DNA of 64,000 nt from Balanoglossus misakiensis (GCA_040954595.2 CM082586.2:587123-651122), one strand, 5' to 3'; counted from the stretch's first letter, positions 900-64,000 are shown. Notes: generated by a model not told the origin, from the sequence alone. A program made the numbers and translations.

Positions 900-1657
900 T
901 CATGACAGCCATGGTTGTGATGATGTCATTGAATGAAACACTTCATCAGCTTTAAGGTTCAACTCCAAACACTTCAAGCAGTTGATCAGAACTTCCCAAG
1001 TTGCACTGCGGTTATTCAACATCCTCCAGGCTGTTAGCATGGCAATGGCTTGTCTCTCACTGTTGCCATAGTGATCTGCACTCACTGCGTCCATTTTGTT
1101 CAATGGAACTCCTAGAACTAAACCGACTTGATAGAAATCCGTTGATATTATTTTAGCAATGAATACCAACTTGTCGTCTGGTATAATATCTGGAATGACA
1201 AATGTGCAAAACATGTTACACACAACAGATAAATCATCTTTAAAGAATGTTGTGTACTTGCATGAATATTTATAAATGTAATCTTGAAAAGAGAATGTAT
1301 ACCTTTCAATATCCCAGCTCTGTGACAAATTTCACTGTCTGTGACATCATGGTCTGTGCATTGTACTGGTCTTTGAGATTCGACGGTTTCGGTCAAGACG
1401 TTAACAAGATGGTTTTGTTTAGATCCAACTTTCAAACTTTTCACCAAAGCTCTGAATGCATCATCACCTCCACAAAGTAGTAACTCCAGCAATCTCTGAT
1501 TTTTGTCTGTCTTGGTTTTATTTCCCGTGTTTTTGATGTCTGACACCATATCCAGTGTGAGAGCGCCCTCCTGAACAAGATATGGGAGCACATAATCTGT
1601 GTTGATCTCCTCCAATAGTTGTACGTAGTTTCTTTCAATTATCTGGCGTTGTGTCAT
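900..1657 (-). CDS. CARD + death domain adaptor protein (CRADD/RAIDD-like architecture), 214 aa, 2 coding exons
   Basis: Exons 1657-1303 and 1189-900, joined by a phase-1 GT-AG intron (aag|gtatac ... attccag|at). Exon 1 is CARD-like (IIERNYVQLLEEINTDYVLPYLVQEGALT...KNQRLLELLLCGGDDAFRALVKSL). Exon 2 is DD-like (LVFIAKIISTDFYQVGLVLGV...QAIAMLTAWR...ATWEVLINCL). A probable 5' UTR exon ends at 1823 with a GTGAGT donor. Confidence 0.85.
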
Positions 1658-2763: not shown

Positions 2764-3796
2764 ATGTCCCGACCACGAAAGAACCCTCGTCACATAACAG
2801 GAACTGTCACCAGGACAACGCTTGAGGAGAAAATTCTAAGGAAACTGGACAAAATTGACGCAGAGATGAGTGAAATGAAAGAATTTAAGGAGGCCATGAC
2901 TTGTAAGCTTGAACAGTTTGAAGATCATTTGGATAAAATGGCTCGTCAACTGAAGGGACTCGCCAACAAGGTCGAAGAGACAACCAAGTTCGGTGTGAAA
3001 CTGGAAAACTTCGAAAAACAAACCACCAAACGGATCAACGATGACATATCGGACACCAAGGTGAAACTTGGCAACGTGGAAGAATTTATTCAGAAAGAAA
3101 TTTGCAATAAACTGCAAAAACTTGATTTGAAGATTTCGACCACAGACTGGTCATTGAGGGCGGACATTGAGAGAATGGAAGATAGTTTGACCGGAGTACC
3201 GATGTTGAGAAGCTCGTTAGAAAACCTACGGAAGTTTGTTGATAATAAACTGCAGACTGTGAATTCTGAATTGAATAAACTAAGAGCTGATATGAGGGCA
3301 GAACAGAAGAAATCACAACTAAATGAAGTCTCCGGTAGGTTTCATTTTGGGCGTTTTTCAACCATTAGTTCTCGACAGGGTGTTCTTCTTACAAGGCCTC
3401 ATTAAACTTGAACTTTACAAGTGGACATTTTATTTCCCAGGTACAATTATGGTGCGTGGCCAATCAGCTGGCTGGACCAGTAAAATAGGCGGCAGTGCTG
3501 GAAATAACACCATCACCGACCATGCAGTATGTGACCGGGATCTGGCACACATCTGTTCAGTGATTGCATCCGAATATTATCGCGTCGGACTTGAATTGGG
3601 ACTTAGTACAGAGATGCTTTGTCGGTGTTCAGCTAAATCCAGGGATGACAACTACAGAAAGACGATTGAAATGCTGAAAATGTGGAAAATGAAGGAATCG
3701 AAAAACGCTTCTTGGGGAAGATTAAGGACAGCGTTGACAAAACTTGATTTAACGGATATGGTGACTGCATTGAATGATCGATTCCCAAATATCTAA
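2764..3796 (+). CDS. Coiled-coil + C-terminal death domain protein, 308 aa, 2 coding exons
   Basis: Exons 2764-3334 and 3441-3796, joined by a phase-1 intron (tccg|gtaggt ... ttcccag|gt). Exon 1 is a long heptad-rich coiled coil. Exon 2 is DD-like (DLAHICSVIASEYYRVGLELGL...KTIEMLKMWK...ASWGRLRTALTKLDLTD). Confidence 0.85.
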
Positions 3797-6700
3797 AATG
3801 TATCTATAAAATTCAAAAATGTCATCGTGACTTCGAATTTTGTCTCGTGTAATATTATTAAAATAATCTACGGGTATTGAACAGATATTGAAAAATGCCA
3901 CGGTACTTAACCGGAAGTACAAGAGAAACAAACTACCGGAAGAAACAAAAGACGGTAACATCAAGGCGTTGAGGGCGCCTGGCAATCACACAGGTGGTTG
4001 AACCACGCCCAAGGAGACAAAAATATTTCTTTGTCCGTGGTTGAATCTAAAACGAGGACGCCCTATGTCGTACATCCATGCCTATAAGCTAAGGGTAGTA
4101 TGCGCTCTAGTTGGCATAAAAGACTCCTGAAAAAAATTAACAATTGAGACACAGGACCACCAGAAAATGCCAGTAGGGTGGGCCATGTACCCATAGGTGA
4201 GAGATGCCATATGAACTCCAAACCTGGGTAGGCCTACTTTGTTTGGAGGTATATATGCACAACGTGTCGAGCTGATCTGTGGACATGTTTACATCTCTGC
4301 ATTCTGATATGATTATTCAGAATACGTAAGCATGCTACAAAGGATTTTATCAAGTTTATATACCTACACATTGCCTGTGCAAATAGTGTGATCTAACTAA
4401 CTGTGCTATATATACATAATACACACAGTTGCCGGCTGATAGTAAATAAGAGATGTGTCAATTTTGTTTTAAAAAACACCAGTTCTGAAATACTGGTATT
4501 TATACAGTTTGTTCAAAATACATGTACGGATATTTTGGGAATTGATAAAAACAAATACACAATGGGTATTATATAAAAATTAACGCATCATTTCATCACA
4601 CTATGATTTTTAAAGGCATGAAAGCAGGTGGTCGGTCTATTTGTTGTCACCTAAGGGTATTTTTTGAAGTTTTTGCATTAACCTAAGGACGCTTCCACGG
4701 TTCACCTCTCACGCAAGCTATAATTCCTAGGCCCATTGTGTCGATATTACTCCAAACATGGCCGCCTTGTGACCCTAACTAAGAAGCCATTACGGACTGA
4801 CACACCAAACCATTATTAGACTTCTGCAGGTTTTCGTTTCCCCAATGCGACAAGCACCTCTTTAAATAACACTGTCAACCGGTTTGTTGGTTGTAGTTAA
4901 TGTACTCCGTGATCAAGCGATAGTCTGCTTGTCTGGTTGTTATGGACGCTATGTGGGGTTCACACAATGGCTGTCTGTGATTGTAAAAAGTGTTTCACTG
5001 CTCAGATTGTTTGAGGTAAGTGTCAATTACCATTTCCAGTCAAATCTCGCTCTCGTCTGGTTTCATAACAAGTCTTGTCGCATAAGGAGATATTTTCCTA
5101 TTTATTTATGAAAACAGAAAAAGGACTCTTTTGTGCGAAGAGAAGTTGGATTCTTTGCAGACGAACATTGTTTCCTGAATGGAGTACAAATCACCTGCCA
5201 CAAATTTCCGTCCATTTCCATTCATACTCCCGAGTCAAATTAAAGTTAAAATAAATTTTTAAAATCTCCGTATTTTTTTAATTGACAAACTACTTGTAAA
5301 ACACGAGTCCGTTCATGAACAAATTGTATTTGACTAACAACAAGTAAAATATCAACGTAACAATAGATTTGAAGACAGTGGGCCTACTGAGATTTTGTTT
5401 ATATTTCGATGTCTAATCCTGATGGTTGTGGATAATTTGTGGGCTTCCTATCGCCTTCCCCGATAACCCTTCAATTGGTGATTGCATAAAAATCTCGATT
5501 GCGTTCCTTATATTCACTCCATGTACCGAGAGAGACAACCTAGAGGTTTTAAATGCTAAGATACAACGTGTATTTTTGTTGGCGATCACAGAGAACAAAG
5601 AGTTTCCACCGTGGTTTGACTTCCTTTGAATTAACCATAAACAATGGGCTTACAAAGCATTGAGAAGTTCATAAAAAGTTCACCAGATCCCCGCCCGTAA
5701 AATACTCCAGACTGTTTTGTCTTTTTATTCTCTATTTACAAGATATTTTCTGTTTTCTTTTCTTTATGACCTCTTTCTCAATGAGGGTGTTGGTCCCCTT
5801 TTTAACAAAGCGTGAATAATATTGGCCTCGGTCCAAGAATTTCACCAGTATTTGGGTACATTGCATTTTGAGCACCCGAGGTTTGTCTCTGTGACGTCAC
5901 GCATTGTCTGGCGCTGTTCAAGGCTTTAGGCTGTGGGTGAGTCGACAATTCTGTCGAGATTACCTTGTCAAGAAAGAATGAATGAGACTAGTCTTAGCTG
6001 TAAAGTTGTACTATGAAGAGATTGTTGCACTCTGCAGAAATATATTACGTGGCTTAGTTTTCAACAAACCTGTGAAGACGGATTGTGAACAAAGTCTGTA
6101 GACATAGAGTGATGTGGTATGCGAAACGGGCACGCAAAGACACGCACTGGTTATCACTCAGCGTGGCTTTACACAGAACAGAATCAGAGACGCGTGACAA
6201 AGACCAGAGGTTGACGGGACATGCTTAAAGATACAATGTCAAAATAGTCTGTAATATAAGGGCAGCGCGTTGGACTGACTTATTTGGAGTTGACGCGGCA
6301 GGGTTAGCGAAGCAAGAAAGTGACTTTTAAAAGTCAGAAAATGGACCAAAAGTGAAGATATATCTGACACCATAGAGTCTGGAGTTTTTATGAAGCTTCA
6401 TAACTTAGTTCAGTAATGCCAGTATTGTATAGGTTTCAGAGGAATCTGAACAGCGTTGTTTCGTTGCCATTCTTCGAACAAAAGAGCACTGTTATTAAAT
6501 CGAGTGGAGTCATTCACAAGTTATTGAAACACTTGATGAGATTAGCAATTAGACACCTGTCTTTAATGACCTTACGTGGGTCAAGGTCAAGGTCAAGACA
6601 GTCGGGGTCTTTTTGCGACACTCAATAAGGGTCACTTGACACACGTGCATCCCTGGAGTTCATTTGTCGGTCCCACAATGCATTGCGCGCTTCACACTGG

Positions 6701-7647
6701 TTGTCAGTGCAGACGAACATCCCGGACACCCACAATATTTGTAATTTCATCGACCATATCTTATGAATTGCGAGTATTAGGGAACGCGTCGTTGCTGCGG
6801 AACAAGACGTTTTATAACTGCATGTTGTATGTAGACACACAAAACCGTGAGAAGCGACCACTGCAAAACTTGAAAGGTCTGTATTGTTACATGTACTCCT
6901 ATACACGGGCTTGTCGTATAACATGTTCTGTGTTCTTACGTCAGAGTTGCGGACAAACATTATACTCCCGGGTCAAAGTAAATTGTCTGGCGCCTCTACG
7001 TTGCACACCTGTTCCAAGAGTGCATAGCGTAATTGACCAATCACAAGTGCTGTGATTTCAGGTGTGCGGAATTGACCAATCGAAATTGTCGGTGCCTGAA
7101 TTAACCAAATAATGACTATCGATCGATTGCCGCTATGTCGGTACGGTTGAAAAGTGTACACTGCCGACAAAAGTTCATGATTGATTTCCGACAGAATAAC
7201 AGTTTGAGTCTTATAGGATTGTTGGTTGAGGCTTTCTTTAACTTCACAATGATTTTAGTCACGGGTCGAGTACCGGGTAACTGTGTGTTAGGCTATTTTT
7301 AAGGTCTGTCGGACCAGAACTATGAATAGATCGACCTTGTGCTAGCAATGACCTTAATTGTGCTGCATAATACCGACACCACTAAATGGATTGAGTAGTA
7401 GTCCCACAAAAGCCGGTGAAATCAAAATGCACGAGGTCAAGTTTATGTTTAACTATTTTGGGCTAGTGTGCGCTATTAGGGGTCATAGATAATTAGAACT
7501 CGCACATGTAGACGAAATTCGCACAAAGTGTCGTATCCACGGCCCCTTACTCGTCACCCGGTCACTTATTGCGTCATCGGTGTCTTTGTCTTTCAGGATC
7601 ATTTTCTGTCGTTCTCTCAATCCAAAGTCTAAAGAAGATTTTACAAG

Positions 7648-9887
7648 ATGGGTGAAGACAAAGACGGTTCGCACAGCAAGGAAGCCATCGTTCAGAAAAT
7701 CGTCCACGTTCTGCATCGAACACTTCAAGACGTTGAACAAGAGTATGTGTATTTTGCGAGACAACGGAACTATTTCATCAACGCCATCAAACACAGAATC
7801 AACCCAGCAGGCAGTAATGAAGAGCGCCATCAATTCCGCGTCAAGTTAGGAGTGAAAACTCTAGGAGAAGTTCGCAAGCTTCTTTCTGTTGCATGGTCCT
7901 CCGATTCAGAAAACGGCAGCAGTGCCAACACACAGGGAGCCCTAGAGATGTTTCTCGATTTAACATACCAACTGAGTGAACTTCGCGAAAATTTGGATGA
8001 GAATTTACCCGATCATGCCAGACAGCACTGTCAGGCCGATTTGGATGAATGGAAACGCTTACTTTCTGACAACTACGATTTGACATATCTTGATAAGGAG
8101 GAATCCACGCTCGACTTTGAAGATCGTCCCGGTTATTCTGGTCTGGTGAGTTTACTGCCTTGTGTGCTGGACACTGCAAATACAGTGTTTCAGATCTTAG
8201 GCGAACTCTACGGCGCGCGGAAGGACACACCTTACCGCCCTCAGTTGAAATCGAAATCCAAGGATCCGAACGTTCTGGAGGAAGAGATGGACGATGATGT
8301 TTTCGTAACTGCACAATCTGTTTTGACAAAAGACGACCAGAAAAATAAAATTGGGAACGAAAAAGAGCGAAAATTAAAGACTTATTCCTCCATACTTTCG
8401 CCAAGACAAGGCCGCACATTGCTTTCGCGAGAGAACAGAAAAGCGCCGCCAAAGGTAACACGCCGAGTGACCCGTCAAGTGACCCATCTATCTCCAAGAA
8501 TCGTTACTAAGCAACCGACATTCATCAGTCGGGTAAAGGCACCGCTAACCGGGCTTCAAACTCGAAAATCGGGGAAACTTCCTGTTCAAGCGACCTCTCA
8601 ACAAAAGGAAAGACAATCGAAATATATATCTATGCAAGATTTTGTCATTTCTCCGACAAAGCAAGTCATATCGTCACCCAGAGCAACGACTCCATACCAG
8701 AGAGTGAAAAAGGAAGATTTTACAAGATTCCCAACTGTGGAAAAACAGAAATCTCTGAAGGGCATAGAAGATTATACAAATGTCCAAAAATCAGCGTTTA
8801 AATCTCAGCTTCCATATCTACGCAAACTCTACGGCATCGACAATGTTTCGCCGCGGCACGCCAAACTCTCAAGCCCACCAATCGTCTCGCAAAGTTTTCC
8901 ACGTCAAAGAGGCGGGAAGATGACGCATGTTCCTTTACATTCAAGTTTGGATCCAGCCCGACAAGATGCATATCCCAGAATGCAACGCGGACAGCAGCGG
9001 ATATCAACTTCCTCCTTGGACTCACTCGACGCCGTCCCAGTCAGTGTCATTTATCATGGCAGTACTATTTACAATTATCCTGGGGGTGAAGTGACGTCAG
9101 ACATGGACCATACCACAAGAGCAATAAAACGAATAGAAGGTAAGGGTGGGCCTGTTTGTGAGTTTGTCATTTGGTTACAATTAACTTCAGGTTTCTACAT
9201 CAGAAAATGAAGTTCTGTAAATTGTGCATTTTGATGCTTGAGTGTCCATAACATGGTAGACATCTTACTTTTCAGAGAGGTTGCTTCCCCAGATGGATTC
9301 GCTGAAAGCCAAAATGAGGAAAGGAAATTTGAAACAAAGAGAAGATTCCAACATCATCAATACATTAGAAAACAGACTAAGAAAAATGGAAGATGAAATT
9401 GAAGACATCAAGACAAGACAATTGTTACATAATTACTATTTGCGAGGTTAGTAACCGCTGACAAGAGTTACATCAGTCTTGAAAAGTCCATCTTCCAGGA
9501 GCGCCTTTCGCGCTCCCCCATAGCAGGGTCGGGGAGCACCTTCAAACGACGGGGTTTTCCAGTCTACGATTATCTGTAGCAATATTTTTTATGATTTCAG
9601 ATGTTTTGAAGACAGTTACAATCAAAGACTTGGACATCATCAAAGACCATGTTGCCTACAAAGATATCATTGAACTTGGAGTTAAACTTGGACTATCGGA
9701 AGTTGATGTGGAGGATGTGAAAGAGGAAACAAACAAACCCAGAGAACAAGTCCTTCAGATGCTGTTGTCATGGAGAAACAAGCTAGGGAAGTCAGCCACG
9801 TTGGATTTGATTATCGAAGCTCTCATTTCTATCAAACGCAGGGAGACTGCAAATAGTATAATTATGGATATGAAGAATAGGAGCTAA
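7648..9887 (+). CDS. SPACA9-like domain / basic SP-rich linker / coiled coil / death domain protein, 649 aa, 3 coding exons
   Basis: Exons 7648-9139, 9276-9446 and 9601-9887; both introns are phase-1 GT-AG and the frame is open throughout. The last exon is DD-like (DLDIIKDHVAYKDIIELGVKLGLS...EQVLQMLLSWRNKLGKSATLDLIIEALISIKR). The first ~190 aa match remembered SPACA9/C9orf9 motifs. AATAAA at 10799-10804. Confidence 0.85.
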
Positions 9888-21870: not shown

Positions 21871-22242
21871 TAAATTAAATTAAATTAAACAAATTCATGA
21901 ATGGACAACTGGGGTCACGTCATATTTTCATGAAAACATAAATTCCTTTGAGTCCATGTGTATGCTTTCTCCTAACCAATATCGTTTTTAATTTATATCA
22001 ATATGAAAATAAGAATGTCCAAAGATACATTTAAATGATTTGTATTAAAATGTAACAAAATCATTGAAAAATAATCACCTGTTATTTATTTTTTTGATTT
22101 GCAGGTTGCTGGCTTTTTATGGAATAAAAATGATTAAAATTAACAATGTCCATTTTCTTTTGCTAAACTCATGTCCACTCCATCTACTCCTCTAATACCC
22201 ACTAAAGCCCAAGTGTCTTACTTCTTGTCTGCGGTTACTAAC

Positions 22243-22413
22243 CTCGCAAATAGCAGTTATGTAACAATTGTCTTGTCTTGATGTCTACAATTTCATCTTC
22301 CATTTTTCATAGTCTGTTTTCTAATGTATTGATGATGTTGGAATCTTCTCTTTGTTTCAAATTTCCGTTCCTCATTTTTGCTTTCAGCGAATCCATCTTG
22401 GGAAGCAACCTCT
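22243..22413 (-). pseudogene. Dead inverted copy of exon 2 of the SPACA9-DD gene
   Basis: 171-nt reverse-complement copy of 9276-9446 with both splice sites retained, and an AGA>TGA in-frame stop at 22309-22307. Exons 1 and 3 are absent. Confidence 0.9.
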
Positions 22414-22489
22414 CTGAAAAGTAAGATGTCTGTCATGTAATGGACACTCAATCATCAAAAGGCACAATTTTATTGTACATGAATCCATG

Positions 22490-60383: not shown

Positions 60384-61634
60384 TCATATATGGCCTATTT
60401 CGCCAAATCGCGTTTCCTTGTAGGCAATATTATTTTCCGGATTCAGTTCAAACCTCCTTTTCCTGGGTATGTAACCAGTCTCTTCCAAGTTCAGCAGAAA
60501 TGCCTTCATTTTTGATTCATGCCTTTCTTGTTCCTCTTTTGTTTCTGCAAGTCGAAGTTGTCGTGCCTCTTCGAATTTCCATTTACTTGTGTAATAGTTT
60601 GCGTTTTCGTCTTCATGTCGCCCTAGCAACCGGGTGGTACCGTCTTGCTTTCCGTCGACTCCTTGAATTCTCGCCATCTGGTTGGCGAATTCCTTGTCAA
60701 AATCTTGTAAATTGCGAATATCTTCTTCTAATTTCTCTCTCCCTTGTGACTGCTGGAGCTGGAAAGAGGATTCTGATAGTGTTGGTGTCTGTTGTCTTGA
60801 TCTTGCCCCTTTCTTTGTGGGTTTTCCGTATTTCTGTTGGAGAGCCTTCCTCTGTCTTTCCATTTCTTCTGTGATATCCGGCCACCTCTCTTCCACGGGT
60901 TTGTTGAATTGCTCTCTTAGACGACACCTGACTTCTTGCACTGTCGGTCCAGTCTTGGACATGTAATGTTCCGTCAGTCGATCGAATGCACTTTTCGGTC
61001 GCTTTTCATTACCGCCGCGGCTTCCATGAAGGTGTCCGTTCGGTTTGTTCCTGTGCGGAGGTGCTGTCTTTACTCTACTCTGTCTTGCAGACGATCGCGG
61101 AGGTGACTGATCTATTCTCGGTGCGAACAATGATCGTGTCGAATGGCGACGTTCACGTTGGTTTTGATGGTGATGTTGGCTAAAATTGTTGTTTTGTATG
61201 GTCCACAGTGAAGTAGGTTTCAACAACTGATTTCCAAATCCTCGCTCTGAATTTTGAACAGGATCGACAAATCCATTTGCACTTTCTGTTCGAGATTTTG
61301 GGGTTTCAGGTGATTTTCTAGGTGAAAGGAGAGAGCCGTTTGATCCGCGCATATTAACAGAGAAATCACGCGAGTTCATCCTCGTCCTCATTTTTGCTTC
61401 TTCTTGTTCTTCAAATTCTTCCTCCATTTGTAACTTTTCTTTCATCATTTGAGTCAGCATCACCTTTTGCTGTTTGTCGAACAACTTCTGTTTTTGTTCC
61501 AGAAGACGGTTCTCACGAATGTTATTCAACCGCAGATCTTCTGATAACTCGCTCCGATGAGGAGTGGCGCCCCCACTGGACCATTTATGATATTCTCGAG
61601 ACGCCCTTTCTGTCCTCTTTTGATTTGAAGCCAT
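60384..61634 (-). CDS. Uncharacterised basic, low-complexity coiled-coil protein, ~416 aa, single coding exon
   Basis: 1.25-kb ORF from ATG 61634 (MASNQ). A splice acceptor with a pyrimidine tract lies upstream at 61695-61696. N-terminal coiled coil LRLNNIRENRLLEQKQKLFDKQQKVMLTQMMKEKLQMEEEF. Confidence 0.8.
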   Translation of the reverse strand: MASNQKRTERASREYHKWSSGGATPHRSELSEDLRLNNIRENRLLEQKQKLFDKQQKVMLTQMMKEKLQMEEEFEEQEEAKMRTRMNSRDFSVNMRGSNGSLLSPRKSPETPKSRTESANGFVDPVQNSERGFGNQLLKPTSLWTIQNNNFSQHHHQNQRERRHSTRSLFAPRIDQSPPRSSARQSRVKTAPPHRNKPNGHLHGSRGGNEKRPKSAFDRLTEHYMSKTGPTVQEVRCRLREQFNKPVEERWPDITEEMERQRKALQQKYGKPTKKGARSRQQTPTLSESSFQLQQSQGREKLEEDIRNLQDFDKEFANQMARIQGVDGKQDGTTRLLGRHEDENANYYTSKWKFEEARQLRLAETKEEQERHESKMKAFLLNLEETGYIPRKRRFELNPENNIAYKETRFGEIGHI

Positions 61635-64000
61635 TGTGTACCGTTGTCGTGACAACTGGACGTTTTCTTCGTGTAACTATTCACCAGTCATTTTCTGAAA
61701 GAGACAAGGGGGAGAAACAGTGGTCATTTCTTAGTATTCTGTTGTAATGTTTGTATTTTACATCATGTTCATGTAAATCAAGAATATTCTCAATGGAATA
61801 TTTTGTTAGATTTTACGTGTAGCATTCAATACCTGTGGATGACTCGATTACATATACGCGTGTATCGTACAAACACAGAGACCGTTTTCATTTTTGTCAT
61901 AATAGAATAAATTTCATAAACGCAAAACTAATGTAACCACATAGTAGGCGTTAAGTAAGTTTTGATGAAATCCATTCGCATAATCGAATTAAAGGATCAA
62001 TATAAATGGATTCCTAATCTAATAAAATTATTATCTTTCAGAGAGATTGCCTAACTCGGTAGCAGTGCGATCTATTCCATTAAAATTTACGCCAAACGAT
62101 ACAAAGTATAATCAGTTAGATGTATGAAAAAATGCATTAGCCTTCCAGAGACGTATTACTATAATTTGATAAATAAATATGCTTAAATCGACACAAACTC
62201 CTACAATGCTGCTTTTCAAAGCAGCATATATTGAATAAAAGGGAAAATCGGGAATCATAATTTCGTTAAAAATTCCCACTGCTGTAATGCATGTCGGGAT
62301 GGCGCCGAATTCTTACCAATCGTAGAGACTTCGAGAGTCGTCGATTGTCGGTATTCCCTCGAATAACTTTGATTGTAGATGCATTCAATTCAAATGATTA
62401 ATTGGTGACGATTCCGCTACAGCTTGGTGTTGCATGGACAATCCATTAACAATGGCTGAACTCACTGACCGTGACCGCTAAGTATCTCAGGCTTTGTGCT
62501 TCTCAGCAATACGGTTTTCTGAACTTCTTGGACTATGTATGTGCATGAACCTTAGCGTCTGAGCTTTATATGGGAAATCACTGAATAGCGTTTGTGATTT
62601 GTATATTTACACAGCACCTGTCTACGTCAGAGTATACGTGTACGATGTGCACCCACTAAATGAGAGAGTTAGGTTGAGTCAACAAAGCTTTCTACTAAGT
62701 TATCAGAGCAGAACTGAGTTATGCTTGTGGAGGGGGCACGGTGATATATTTGGCCATCTACCGTATCCGATGACATCAACGCTGTCGTACAGTCACACTC
62801 GATAAAAGGAAAGGCTTTGATTTCCTGTTGGCTAAAGACTAAGTCCAAGGTGATTCCGTGAAATAACGGGATATTTCACCAAAACTTTAATTGGGGGAAA
62901 CAGGAGTGGTCTAATCGGTCCCACTAAATTTAAATTCAACGACTTCCGGTGTTTGTGTGTTGGTGTCCAAGCTCATCTTCTGTTTTTCTGTGGTGACGAA
63001 TTCTAGCGTACCTGTGAGACACTTTAATGACTTCTACCCTGCCTTTTGTCCTGTACTCCTGAAGTTGCCGTGATCGCCACCATAATTGGCCAACTTCGTG
63101 ATCCATCTTTAATATTAGGCAGAGCCCCTAGGTTTATTGCTACATGCACATGACCAATCGGGGGACAATAACTAAGATTTTTGACAATTGTAAAATAAAA
63201 TTGTAGCGTATACTGGGGCGTTTCGAGACAAAATTTTACAACTTGCTATAATTGATGTCGTTTTGTCAGCTTGGTCCTTATCGTGGGTTTCTCGCTGTAA
63301 ACACGTGCCTTATATTGTTTACAATAAAAAATACCAATGTTTTCAAACTTATGTTGTCGTAAAATTGGTGACAGTGGGTCTACAGCTTGATGTCGCATGG
63401 ACGATCCATTAACAAAACTACAATAGCGTGTCAAGGCATTCCTTCGTTCATCGAACAGAATGATCTATGACACTAAGCTACTTTGCATTTGTTTGCTTCG
63501 CCGCTTCGAAAAACCTTCGGACATTTGAAAGTGAATCAACTTGAAGGTCGCACGTCTTAGCCTTGTTTTCATTTTGTCCGTGAGTAATTGGAAAATAATC
63601 CATATACTTATGCATCGCAATTCATGAGATCAGTATATAGACACATTTCAAAGCCGCCACCTCTTTTATAACACGTGGCAGTCATGGGGGGGGGGACTGT
63701 GGTATGAATGGTATCCTGTACTTGTAGGGCTTCTTATGGGTTGAAAATCAAGTGCTATTTACTGCCAAAGTGGTAATAAGATTTGTACGTATTAGCCTGA
63801 GACTGTTTTGAAAGACAGACAACATTATCACCCATAATGCGATCGATTATTCACGAATAATTTTCAGCATGTGGTGGTGTGTTATCTGTGTCCTGAAACC
63901 AATCATTGATCTGAATATTTACGCAGATGTTTGATGTTACGTCACACAATATGGTACACCTGTTTAGTCAATCAATAGACAAGTGGTACCAGACGGTGAA

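What the first reader, a model, noticed from the sequence alone, without database searches (positions are those of the whole stretch)
7648..9887. SPACA9 (microtubule inner protein)-like domain fused to a death domain
Seen: a spliced 649-aa ORF ending in a DD exon. Its first ~190 aa align colinearly with human SPACA9/C9orf9 as I remember it: LQDVEQEYVYFARQRNYFINAIKH ~ LRSIEQKYKLFQQQQLTFTAALEH; ALEMFLDLTYQLSEL ~ VLLMFLDICSELNKL; LDEWKRLLSDNYDLTYL ~ LEKCKTLVSQSNDLSSL; YSGLVSLLPCVLD ~ YGGVVSLIPLILD. Established: SPACA9 is a small stand-alone lumenal protein that polymerises inside ciliary and sperm microtubules; DDs nucleate helical signalosomes. I know of no described SPACA9-DD fusion. Inference: a microtubule- or axoneme-tethered death-fold scaffold. 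The ~300-aa basic linker is rich in SP/TP sites (LSPR, ISPT, SSPR, VSPR), suggesting control by proline-directed kinases.
Basis: partly seen in the sequence, partly recalled or inferred. Interest (0 to 1): 0.9.

Follow-up and report, generated by a model that had tools for sequence, protein, structure and literature searches.

The report
Acorn-worm SPACA9–death-domain fusion gene family
A predicted three-exon gene, likely from an acorn worm, joins a divergent relative of SPACA9 (a protein that lines the inside of sperm and cilia microtubules) to a death domain; the same pairing is kept in three acorn-worm families and likely attaches a death-domain scaffold to microtubules, which is untested.

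Summary
Both domain calls hold. A GT-AG three-exon model gives 649 aa without a stop. Residues ~19-186 are SPACA9-like by Pfam (E 6.5e-5, below the curated cut-off), by profile against PDB (top 6 of 11 hits) and by predicted fold (Z 18.2, rmsd 2.1 A). Exon 3 is a death domain (E 1.6e-13). Database gene models with the same layout occur in Ptychodera, Glandiceps and Saccoglossus, plus a second paralog family in two of them; none was found outside acorn worms. Against a lumen-lining role, only 1 of 7 published tubulin/SAXO contact residues is kept, and a GFP tag reportedly disturbs SPACA9. The basic, SP-rich linker and a tail-like motif keep a microtubule link plausible, since SPACA9's disordered tail drives binding in vitro (preprint). 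Verdict: a real, conserved architecture absent from the papers searched; likely a microtubule-associated, self-associating death-domain scaffold (about 45%).

The parts
7597..7647 (+). Untranslated start of the first coding exon, after a candidate acceptor (AG at 7595-7596); implies an unlocated upstream 5'-UTR exon
   Evidence: Sequence; inference
7648..9139 (+). Coding exon 1 (aa 1-497): SPACA9-like domain, basic linker, hairpin motif
   Evidence: Open frame of 525 codons stop to stop; tblastn of three orthologues
7702..8205 (+). Divergent SPACA9-fold four-helix bundle (aa ~19-186)
   Evidence: Pfam E 6.5e-5; profile vs PDB E 9e-9 to 4e-6; Foldseek TM by target 0.79-0.85; VIA-align Z 18.2
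8221..8241 (+). K-x-T-P-Y-R-P motif after helix 4, resembling the K-x-[PA]-W-R-P end of canonical SPACA9 tails
   Evidence: In 4 of 4 family-A proteins, partly in 1 of 2 family-B proteins; chance 1-2% per shuffled linker, noticed post hoc
8242..9000 (+). Basic, predicted disordered linker (aa 199-451) with conserved S/T-P-[RK] sites
   Evidence: pI 10.5 and site statistics; pLDDT under 50 over 192-482 in the orthologue model
9034..9081 (+). Highly conserved short motif (aa 463-478), predicted beta-hairpin; family A only
   Evidence: Alignments; two strands in the orthologue model at low pLDDT; no Pfam or credible PDB match
9140..9275 (+). Intron 1, GT-AG, 136 nt, phase 1
   Evidence: orthologues colinear across it
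9276..9446 (+). Coding exon 2 (aa 498-554): coiled coil with an R-h-x-x-h-E motif at aa 531-536 (9374-9391)
   Evidence: Helices in the orthologue model; motif in 5 of 6 fusion proteins, 5.8% chance in shuffled exon; 68-79% identity to orthologues
9447..9600 (+). Intron 2, GT-AG, 154 nt, phase 1
   Evidence: orthologues colinear across it
9601..9887 (+). Coding exon 3 (aa 555-649): death domain and stop codon
   Evidence: Pfam PF00531 E 1.6e-13; orthologue model matches RAIDD, ankyrin, FADD and TNFR1 death domains, TM by target ~0.8; 71-86% identity to orthologues
22243..22413 (-). Orphan duplicate of exon 2 with an in-frame stop; exons 1 and 3 not found beside it
   Evidence: 95% nucleotide identity over 248 nt; 7 of 171 bases differ; tblastn finds only exon 2 there

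Best explanation
This predicted three-exon gene encodes a divergent SPACA9-like domain, a basic linker, a coiled coil and a death domain, a layout conserved in database gene models from three acorn-worm families, and the protein likely works as a self-associating death-domain scaffold held on microtubules. Shown: the domains, their order, the conservation, and a second paralog family with the same layout. Inferred steps: (1) a SPACA9 copy gained a coiled-coil plus death-domain tail once, before the three families split, and then duplicated into families A and B; (2) in family A, microtubule binding would come mainly from the tail-like motif and the basic disordered linker, as for SPACA9's own tail, and not from the eroded lumen-contact face; (3) proline-directed phosphorylation of the conserved SP/TP sites would lower the linker's charge and release it; (4) the exon-2 coiled coil would form a parallel trimer presenting three death domains to a fixed partner, most likely in sperm or ciliated cells. 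It is probably not an 8-nm lumen-lining polymer like TAILS.
For: SPACA9 homology: Pfam; top 6 of 11 PDB hits for the four-sequence profile; hhalign probability 97.2, E 3e-11; a canonical-only HMM scores the window domain 62 bits and reversed decoys at most 5.8 (its members were picked by our own profile, so partly circular). A model folded without canonical SPACA9 rows (pLDDT 79.5) finds 22 Foldseek matches at E<=0.001, the 13 listed all from axoneme or sperm-microtubule entries that hold SPACA9, next hit E 0.098; VIA-align Z 18.2, rmsd 2.1 A over 149 residues, next unrelated fold Z 10.1. Single origin: the 6 fusion N-domains fall on one side of a 99/98 branch against 10 canonical rows, share the same deletion, and family-A and -B death domains are closer to each other (33-38%) than family A is to the neighbouring death domains (26-28%). 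Linker pI 10.4-11.4 in 4 of 4 family-A proteins; 5 canonical tails examined have pI 9.5-11.9. A preprint reports that the SPACA9 tail is necessary and sufficient for binding in vitro and that mutating five core contacts has no effect. Trimer motif in 5 of 6 (definition). The death domain is the most conserved part (71-86%), which fits a fixed partner.
Against: Only Q21 of 7 published contact positions (Q20, Q21, H37, T61, R64, Y117, N123) is kept in the window protein, against 6-7 of 7 in four vertebrate SPACA9s, 4 in amphioxus and 3 in one unnamed homologue (numbering taken from a 222-aa sturgeon-cluster sequence). Family B lacks the strongly basic SP-rich linker (pI 8.0-9.3, 0-1 sites), so the tethering model covers family A only. 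A basic disordered linker could bind nucleic acid or membranes as well. The tail-like motif was noticed post hoc and sits right after the core, not at a tail end. The trimer motif has a 5.8% chance rate and is missing in Saccoglossus family A. No RFX X-box lies in the 2 kb upstream (0.3-0.7 expected by window frequency, so weak). The gene lies next to CARD-DD and coiled-coil-DD genes, and death-fold shuffling is extensive in amphioxus. The tree has long branches meeting at the key split.
Confidence: 0.45

Rival explanations
1. The SPACA9 bundle has been repurposed as a general protein-interaction module in a cytosolic cell-death or innate-immune adaptor with no microtubule link; the death domain joins PIDDosome- or RIPK1-like assemblies.
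For: Contact residues are lost while the fold is kept. The next-best folds are interaction bundles such as p130Cas and vinculin (Z 8.9-10.1). The best death-domain sequence hits are CRADD, RIPK1 and PIDD, all weak. CARD-DD and coiled-coil-DD genes lie within 7 kb. Death-fold shuffling is reported in amphioxus (passages).
Against: Family A gave one sequence per species in three searches with a 71-86% identical death domain, unlike the fast-turnover immune expansions I recall. Its death domain is only 26-28% identical to the neighbours. No RHIM match.
Confidence: 0.28
2. It is a true microtubule inner protein: the SPACA9 domain binds the lumen as in vertebrates, perhaps sparsely or mixed with canonical SPACA9, and the death domain plays a structural role or is threaded out of the lattice.
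For: Fold closely kept (rmsd 2.1 A); Q21 kept in 6 of 6 fusions; the five core contacts were dispensable in vitro; MNMIP1 is reported to thread the lattice at the seam (passages); LRRD1 is a death-domain axonemal component.
Against: The protein is 74.5 kDa against 159-224 aa for solved SPACA9 chains; a C-terminal GFP already altered SPACA9 function, which the authors attribute to steric hindrance; the SAXO contacts Q20, H37 and Y117 are not kept in the window protein.
Confidence: 0.14
3. The basic SP-rich linker binds chromatin or RNA in germ cells, and the protein is a nuclear or granule scaffold.
For: pI above 10 and conserved S/T-P-[RK] sites, which resemble the phospho-regulated basic motifs of sea-urchin sperm histones (recalled, not from a call). 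A nuclear death-domain protein (THOC1/p84) is among the weak matches.
Against: No nucleic-acid-binding domain in Pfam; family B lacks the basic linker.
Confidence: 0.08
4. The fusion is a gene-model artefact: exon 1 and the coiled-coil/death-domain exons belong to separate transcripts.
For: The orthologues are computed database models (XP accessions) whose read support I did not see. Exon 1 can read through to a stop at 9208-9210.
Against: Short canonical introns in frame; five database models in three families share the layout; residues are invariant on both sides of each junction, and the read-through peptide matches no orthologue.
Confidence: 0.05

Closest known systems
SPACA9 / C9orf9 (Pfam PF15120; TAILS complex; PDB 7UN1, 8OTZ, 9CPC)
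   Same: Colinear profile match over nearly the whole domain, same predicted bundle (TM by target 0.79-0.85, Z 18.2), conserved helix-4 core and Q21, and a basic disordered region after the core.
   Different: About 25% identity; 1 of 7 contact residues kept; Tyr-Pro-His stretch deleted; about 460 extra residues with a coiled coil and a death domain. Canonical SPACA9 is a stand-alone protein of ~160-300 aa in the hits seen.
Uncharacterised acorn-worm proteins XP_070533109.1, XP_077990715.1, XP_006819875.1 (family A); XP_077980457.1, XP_006824370.1 (family B)
   Same: Same domain order. Family A is 70/55/50% identical in the N-domain and 86/76/71% in the death domain.
   Different: All are named 'uncharacterized'; only one carries a precomputed SPACA9 label. 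Family B is 22-26% identical in the N-domain and lacks the basic SP-rich linker and hairpin.
Death-domain adaptors CRADD/RAIDD, PIDD1, RIPK1, FADD, TRADD
   Same: C-terminal six-helix death domain behind an N-terminal module.
   Different: No CARD, DED, kinase, TIR or ZU5 domain in Pfam scans; sequence matches are weak (E 8e-4 or worse), so no orthology to any of them.
LRRD1 (death-domain protein of the mouse sperm central apparatus and radial spoke 3)
   Same: A death domain in an axoneme-associated protein (passages).
   Different: Leucine-rich-repeat protein on the outside of the microtubule; no homology was tested beyond both having a death domain.

Membership tests
SPACA9 (PF15120) | Significant colinear profile match over the domain | tested here: met
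   E 6.5e-5 over profile 6-147 of 164; profile vs PDB E 9e-9; hhalign 97.2%
SPACA9 (PF15120) | Score above Pfam's curated cut-off (25 bits) | tested here: not met
   Window domain 23.1 bits; 1 of 3 family-A orthologues passes and 0 of 2 family-B proteins were hit
SPACA9 (PF15120) | Four-helix bundle with capping insertions | tested here: met
   Predicted model, not a solved structure: Foldseek E 9e-7, TM by target 0.82; VIA Z 18.2, rmsd 2.1 A, 149 aligned. The first insertion is low-confidence in the model.
SPACA9 (PF15120) | Tubulin contacts Q20, Q21, T61, R64, N123 and SAXO contacts Q20, H37, Y117 | tested here: not met
   1 of 7 kept; T61 is ambiguous by one position; Y117-H119 deleted in 6 of 6 fusions (residues)
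SPACA9 (PF15120) | Small stand-alone protein | tested here: not met
   649 aa with coiled coil and death domain
SPACA9 (PF15120) | Disordered basic tail with conserved end motif | tested here: inconclusive
   Basic disordered region and a similar P-aromatic-R-P motif are present, but post hoc and in a different position; the preprint's figure of tail motifs was not seen
SPACA9 (PF15120) | Binds the microtubule lumen with 8-nm repeat | not testable with these tools
   Needs co-sedimentation, TIRF or cryo-EM
Death domain (PF00531) | Profile match above cut-off and six-helix fold | tested here: met
   51 bits against 22.6; six helices and TM by target ~0.8 to RAIDD, FADD and TNFR1 death domains in the orthologue model
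Death domain (PF00531) | Forms helical homotypic signalling assemblies | not testable with these tools
   No partner is known; needs biochemistry
Trimeric coiled coil (RhxxhE type) | R-h-x-x-h-E motif in heptad register and trimeric state | tested here: inconclusive
   Motif in 5 of 6 proteins, 5.8% by chance (definition); oligomeric state not modelled
RHIM amyloid motif | Profile match at the conserved hairpin | tested here: inconclusive
   No Pfam family at E<=10 and no credible PDB hit for the 41-aa stretch; short motifs are easily missed

The most novel reading that the evidence does not exclude
Acorn worms have two paralogous receptors that use a SPACA9 fold to recognise exposed lumenal tubulin (opened or broken axonemal or sperm microtubules) and cluster death domains through a trimeric coiled coil, which would make them microtubule-damage sensors wired to death-fold signalling.
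Probability: 0.1. Interest if true: 0.9.

Novelty: new variant of a known kind. Interest (0 to 1): 0.6.

Why it matters
The 2022 structure paper reports SPACA9 as a fold unique among human proteins, and every canonical hit seen here is stand-alone, apart from one bird model with three repeats. This family shows the fold used as a module in a larger protein and kept across three acorn-worm families. It is a natural test of the open question whether SPACA9 binds through its core contacts or its disordered tail, because the fusions keep the fold, lose the contacts and, in family A, extend the basic tail. If microtubule binding is confirmed, it ties a death-fold scaffold to the ciliary or sperm cytoskeleton. 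The limits: only acorn worms so far, and no functional data.

Tried and rejected
No whole genome is held for the window, so synteny and a canonical SPACA9 copy in this species could not be checked. Sequencing runs: no RNA holder was listed; no reads were laid. Complex prediction of three copies of the hairpin/coiled-coil/death-domain region was not available: no verdict. A search with amphioxus SPACA9 for a canonical acorn-worm SPACA9 returned only 2 hits among 659 candidates, too insensitive to answer. The C-terminal search returned only the 3 family-A orthologues among 1029 candidates and missed family B, which shows its limited reach. Metagenome scan: 275 pattern matches, none confirmed. 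ESM Atlas: no usable feature hit for either query; structure rows were generic death-domain clusters under the naming bar; this shows neither novelty nor absence. RHIM idea for the hairpin: no support. Pfam ORF126-like and PDB aIF2-alpha or NagJ hits were rejected as short or weak helical matches. Recent capture of the death domain from the neighbouring genes was rejected on identity. Promoter scan: no X-box; two CCAAT-like boxes at 7035 and 7074 against 0.7 expected, not interpreted. Rows dropped: P0005 (bird model with three SPACA9 repeats) and P0012 (partial) from alignments and trees; P0013 (long branch) from the second tree; near-identical cluster members. Names were looked up for 10 of the 11 new hits. 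The supplement search of PMC9564825 found no invertebrate names in 2 text files; its Fig. S4 alignment and the preprint's Fig. S9 were not seen and may bear on taxonomic range and the tail motif.

Full report
Gene model. The window has an open frame from ATG 7648. Joining 7648-9139, 9276-9446 and 9601-9887 gives 649 aa with one terminal stop; both introns are short, GT-AG and phase 1. Three database proteins from Ptychodera flava (643 aa), Glandiceps talaboti (671 aa) and Saccoglossus kowalevskii (677 aa) were the only hits among 415 candidates for the N-terminal region, and all carry a death domain. They align along the whole model and without a gap across either junction, and tblastn places them on exactly these three exons. 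These species belong to three enteropneust families. The window is therefore likely from an acorn worm, nearest to Ptychodera among the hits (inference). The orthologues are computed models whose read support I did not see, so splicing rests on signals and conservation.

SPACA9 domain. Pfam gives PF15120 at E 6.5e-5 over profile positions 6-147 of 164, 23.1 bits against a cut-off of 25; the Glandiceps orthologue passes with 28.2 bits and the other two do not. Against PDB sequences the top 6 of 20 hits are SPACA9; with a four-sequence profile the top 6 of 11 are SPACA9 at E 9e-9 to 4e-6 and the next hit is at 0.07. An AlphaFold2 model of aa 1-200 built from six fusion sequences only, without templates or canonical rows, has mean pLDDT 79.5. 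Foldseek gives 22 matches at E<=0.001; the 13 listed come from axoneme or sperm-microtubule entries that hold SPACA9, with TM by target 0.79-0.85, and the next hit is at E 0.098. VIA-align over 48,161 chains ranks bovine SPACA9 first (Z 18.2, rmsd 2.1 A, 149 residues); the best unrelated bundle scores 10.1. The homology is secure.

Rest of the protein. Exon 3 is a death domain (E 1.6e-13) with only weak sequence likeness to CRADD, RIPK1, PIDD, THOC1 and ankyrin domains. The full-length model of the Ptychodera orthologue shows the bundle, a disordered stretch at 192-482 with a short two-strand hairpin, long helices at 482-547 and six death-domain helices; Foldseek returns SPACA9 entries first and death domains next. 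Identity to orthologues is 50-70% in the bundle, 37-57% in the linker, 68-79% in exon 2 and 71-86% in the death domain. Exon 2 carries an R-h-x-x-h-E motif in 5 of 6 fusion proteins, with a 5.8% chance rate; PMC5940361 (passages) describes this as a trimerisation motif. The linker is basic in all 4 family-A proteins (pI 10.4-11.4), S/T-P-[RK] sites are enriched (p 0.0002-0.0075) and 5 of 7 window sites are aligned in all 4. Plain S/T-P counts are borderline in the window protein (p 0.11, p 0.044, depending on the boundaries).

Family. A profile search of 1.84 billion representatives gave 14 hits at E<=0.001: the 3 orthologues; 2 further proteins of 551 and 541 aa from Glandiceps and Saccoglossus with a C-terminal death domain (family B); 8 proteins with a Pfam SPACA9 match and no death domain (vertebrates, amphioxus, one unnamed, one not looked up); and 1 unnamed 190-aa protein without a Pfam hit. 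Families A and B share the deletion in the h3-h4 insertion, the coiled-coil register and related death domains (33-38% identity, against 26-28% to the neighbouring genes), and their N-domains fall on one side of a 99/98 branch against 10 canonical rows, with a long-branch warning. One fusion followed by a duplication before the families split is the simplest reading (inference). No fusion outside acorn worms appeared, but the word-based searches are insensitive: one search missed family B and one search found 2 canonical SPACA9s. Whether acorn worms keep a canonical SPACA9 is open.

Does it still bind microtubules? PMC9564825 (abstract, section 6 and part 2 of 3 of section 4) names Q20, Q21, T61, R64, N123 as tubulin contacts and Q20, H37, Y117 as SAXO contacts. 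Mapped through a 222-aa canonical sequence that has six of these at the same numbers, the window protein keeps only Q21 (its Q39); R64 is Gly in family A, as also in that reference, and Y117-H119 is deleted in 6 of 6 fusions. Four vertebrate SPACA9s keep 6-7 of 7, amphioxus 4. This argues against an unchanged lumen footprint. However, bioRxiv 10.64898/2026.06.14.732105 (abstract, section 8 and discussion) reports that mutating the five tubulin contacts changes nothing in vitro, that the disordered tail is necessary and sufficient, and that a C-terminal GFP disturbs function. So lost contacts do not exclude binding, while a 460-residue extension fits poorly with dense lumen packing. Canonical tails in the fetched set are basic and often end in K-x-[PA]-W-R-P; family A has K-x-T-P-Y-R-P just after the bundle (1-2% by shuffle, post hoc). 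My best reading is a linker-tethered, phospho-regulated, self-associating death-domain scaffold on microtubules (0.45). Rivals: microtubule-free adaptor (0.28), true lumen protein (0.14), chromatin or RNA scaffold (0.08), model artefact (0.05). No step of function was shown.

Literature. 'SPACA9' with 'death domain' gave 2 papers: in one the only mention is the name of LRRD1 (passages); the other, on ducks, was seen as a listing only. 'C9orf9' with 'death domain' gave 1 listing, not read. Five gene and protein identifiers gave 0 papers. 'Saccoglossus', 'death domain', 'sperm', 'cilia' gave 2 listings, not read. The library lacks most subscription papers. LRRD1 in the sperm central apparatus and radial spoke (PMC12297659, passages) shows that death domains occur in axonemal structure. 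PMC2575513 (passages) reports extensive death-fold shuffling in amphioxus, which lowers the surprise of a new death-domain fusion. PMC13373224, PMC10973386, bioRxiv 10.64898/2026.08.28.747525 and 10.1101/2022.09.29.510157 were seen as passages only and showed no SPACA9 paralog or fusion in those passages. The scan's own notes held nothing on this sequence or place and no note with the word SPACA9.

Verdict. This is a new architecture built from two known domains, conserved as a two-paralog family in acorn worms.

Noticed in passing
window 900-1657 (-): Two-exon CARD plus death-domain gene, RAIDD/CRADD-like in layout (Pfam CARD E 6e-14, Death E 1e-5); exact splice sites not settled.
   Followed up: partly
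window 2764-3796 (+): Coiled-coil plus death-domain gene, best model 308 aa with a phase-1 intron before the death-domain exon. Three death-fold genes lie within 9 kb.
   Followed up: partly
window 22223-22470 (-): Orphan copy of exon 2, 95% identical, with an in-frame stop and without the death-domain exon, at the junction of an inverted duplication.
   Followed up: yes
window 12.0-15.6 kb (-), 18.4-21.8 kb (+), 23.6-27.3 kb (-): Three paralogous multi-exon genes in inverted duplications, 82-90% identical; they look like SLCO/OATP transporters (recognised from the translations, not scanned).
   Followed up: no
window 31.4-34.4 kb (-): Exons that look like cohesin RAD21 (recognised from the translations, not scanned).
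   Followed up: no
window 45-58.5 kb (-): Tandem paralogs that look like SLC16/MCT transporters (not scanned).
   Followed up: no
window 60387-61676 (-): 430-codon basic, Ser/Arg-rich open frame with coiled-coil-like ends and no Pfam match.
   Followed up: partly
window 7035 and 7074 (+): Two CCAAT-box-like sites 39 nt apart upstream of the gene; no RFX X-box in 5600-7650.
   Followed up: partly
P0013: Unnamed 190-aa protein without a Pfam hit that scores 32 bits on a canonical SPACA9 HMM: another highly divergent stand-alone SPACA9-like protein.
   Followed up: partly
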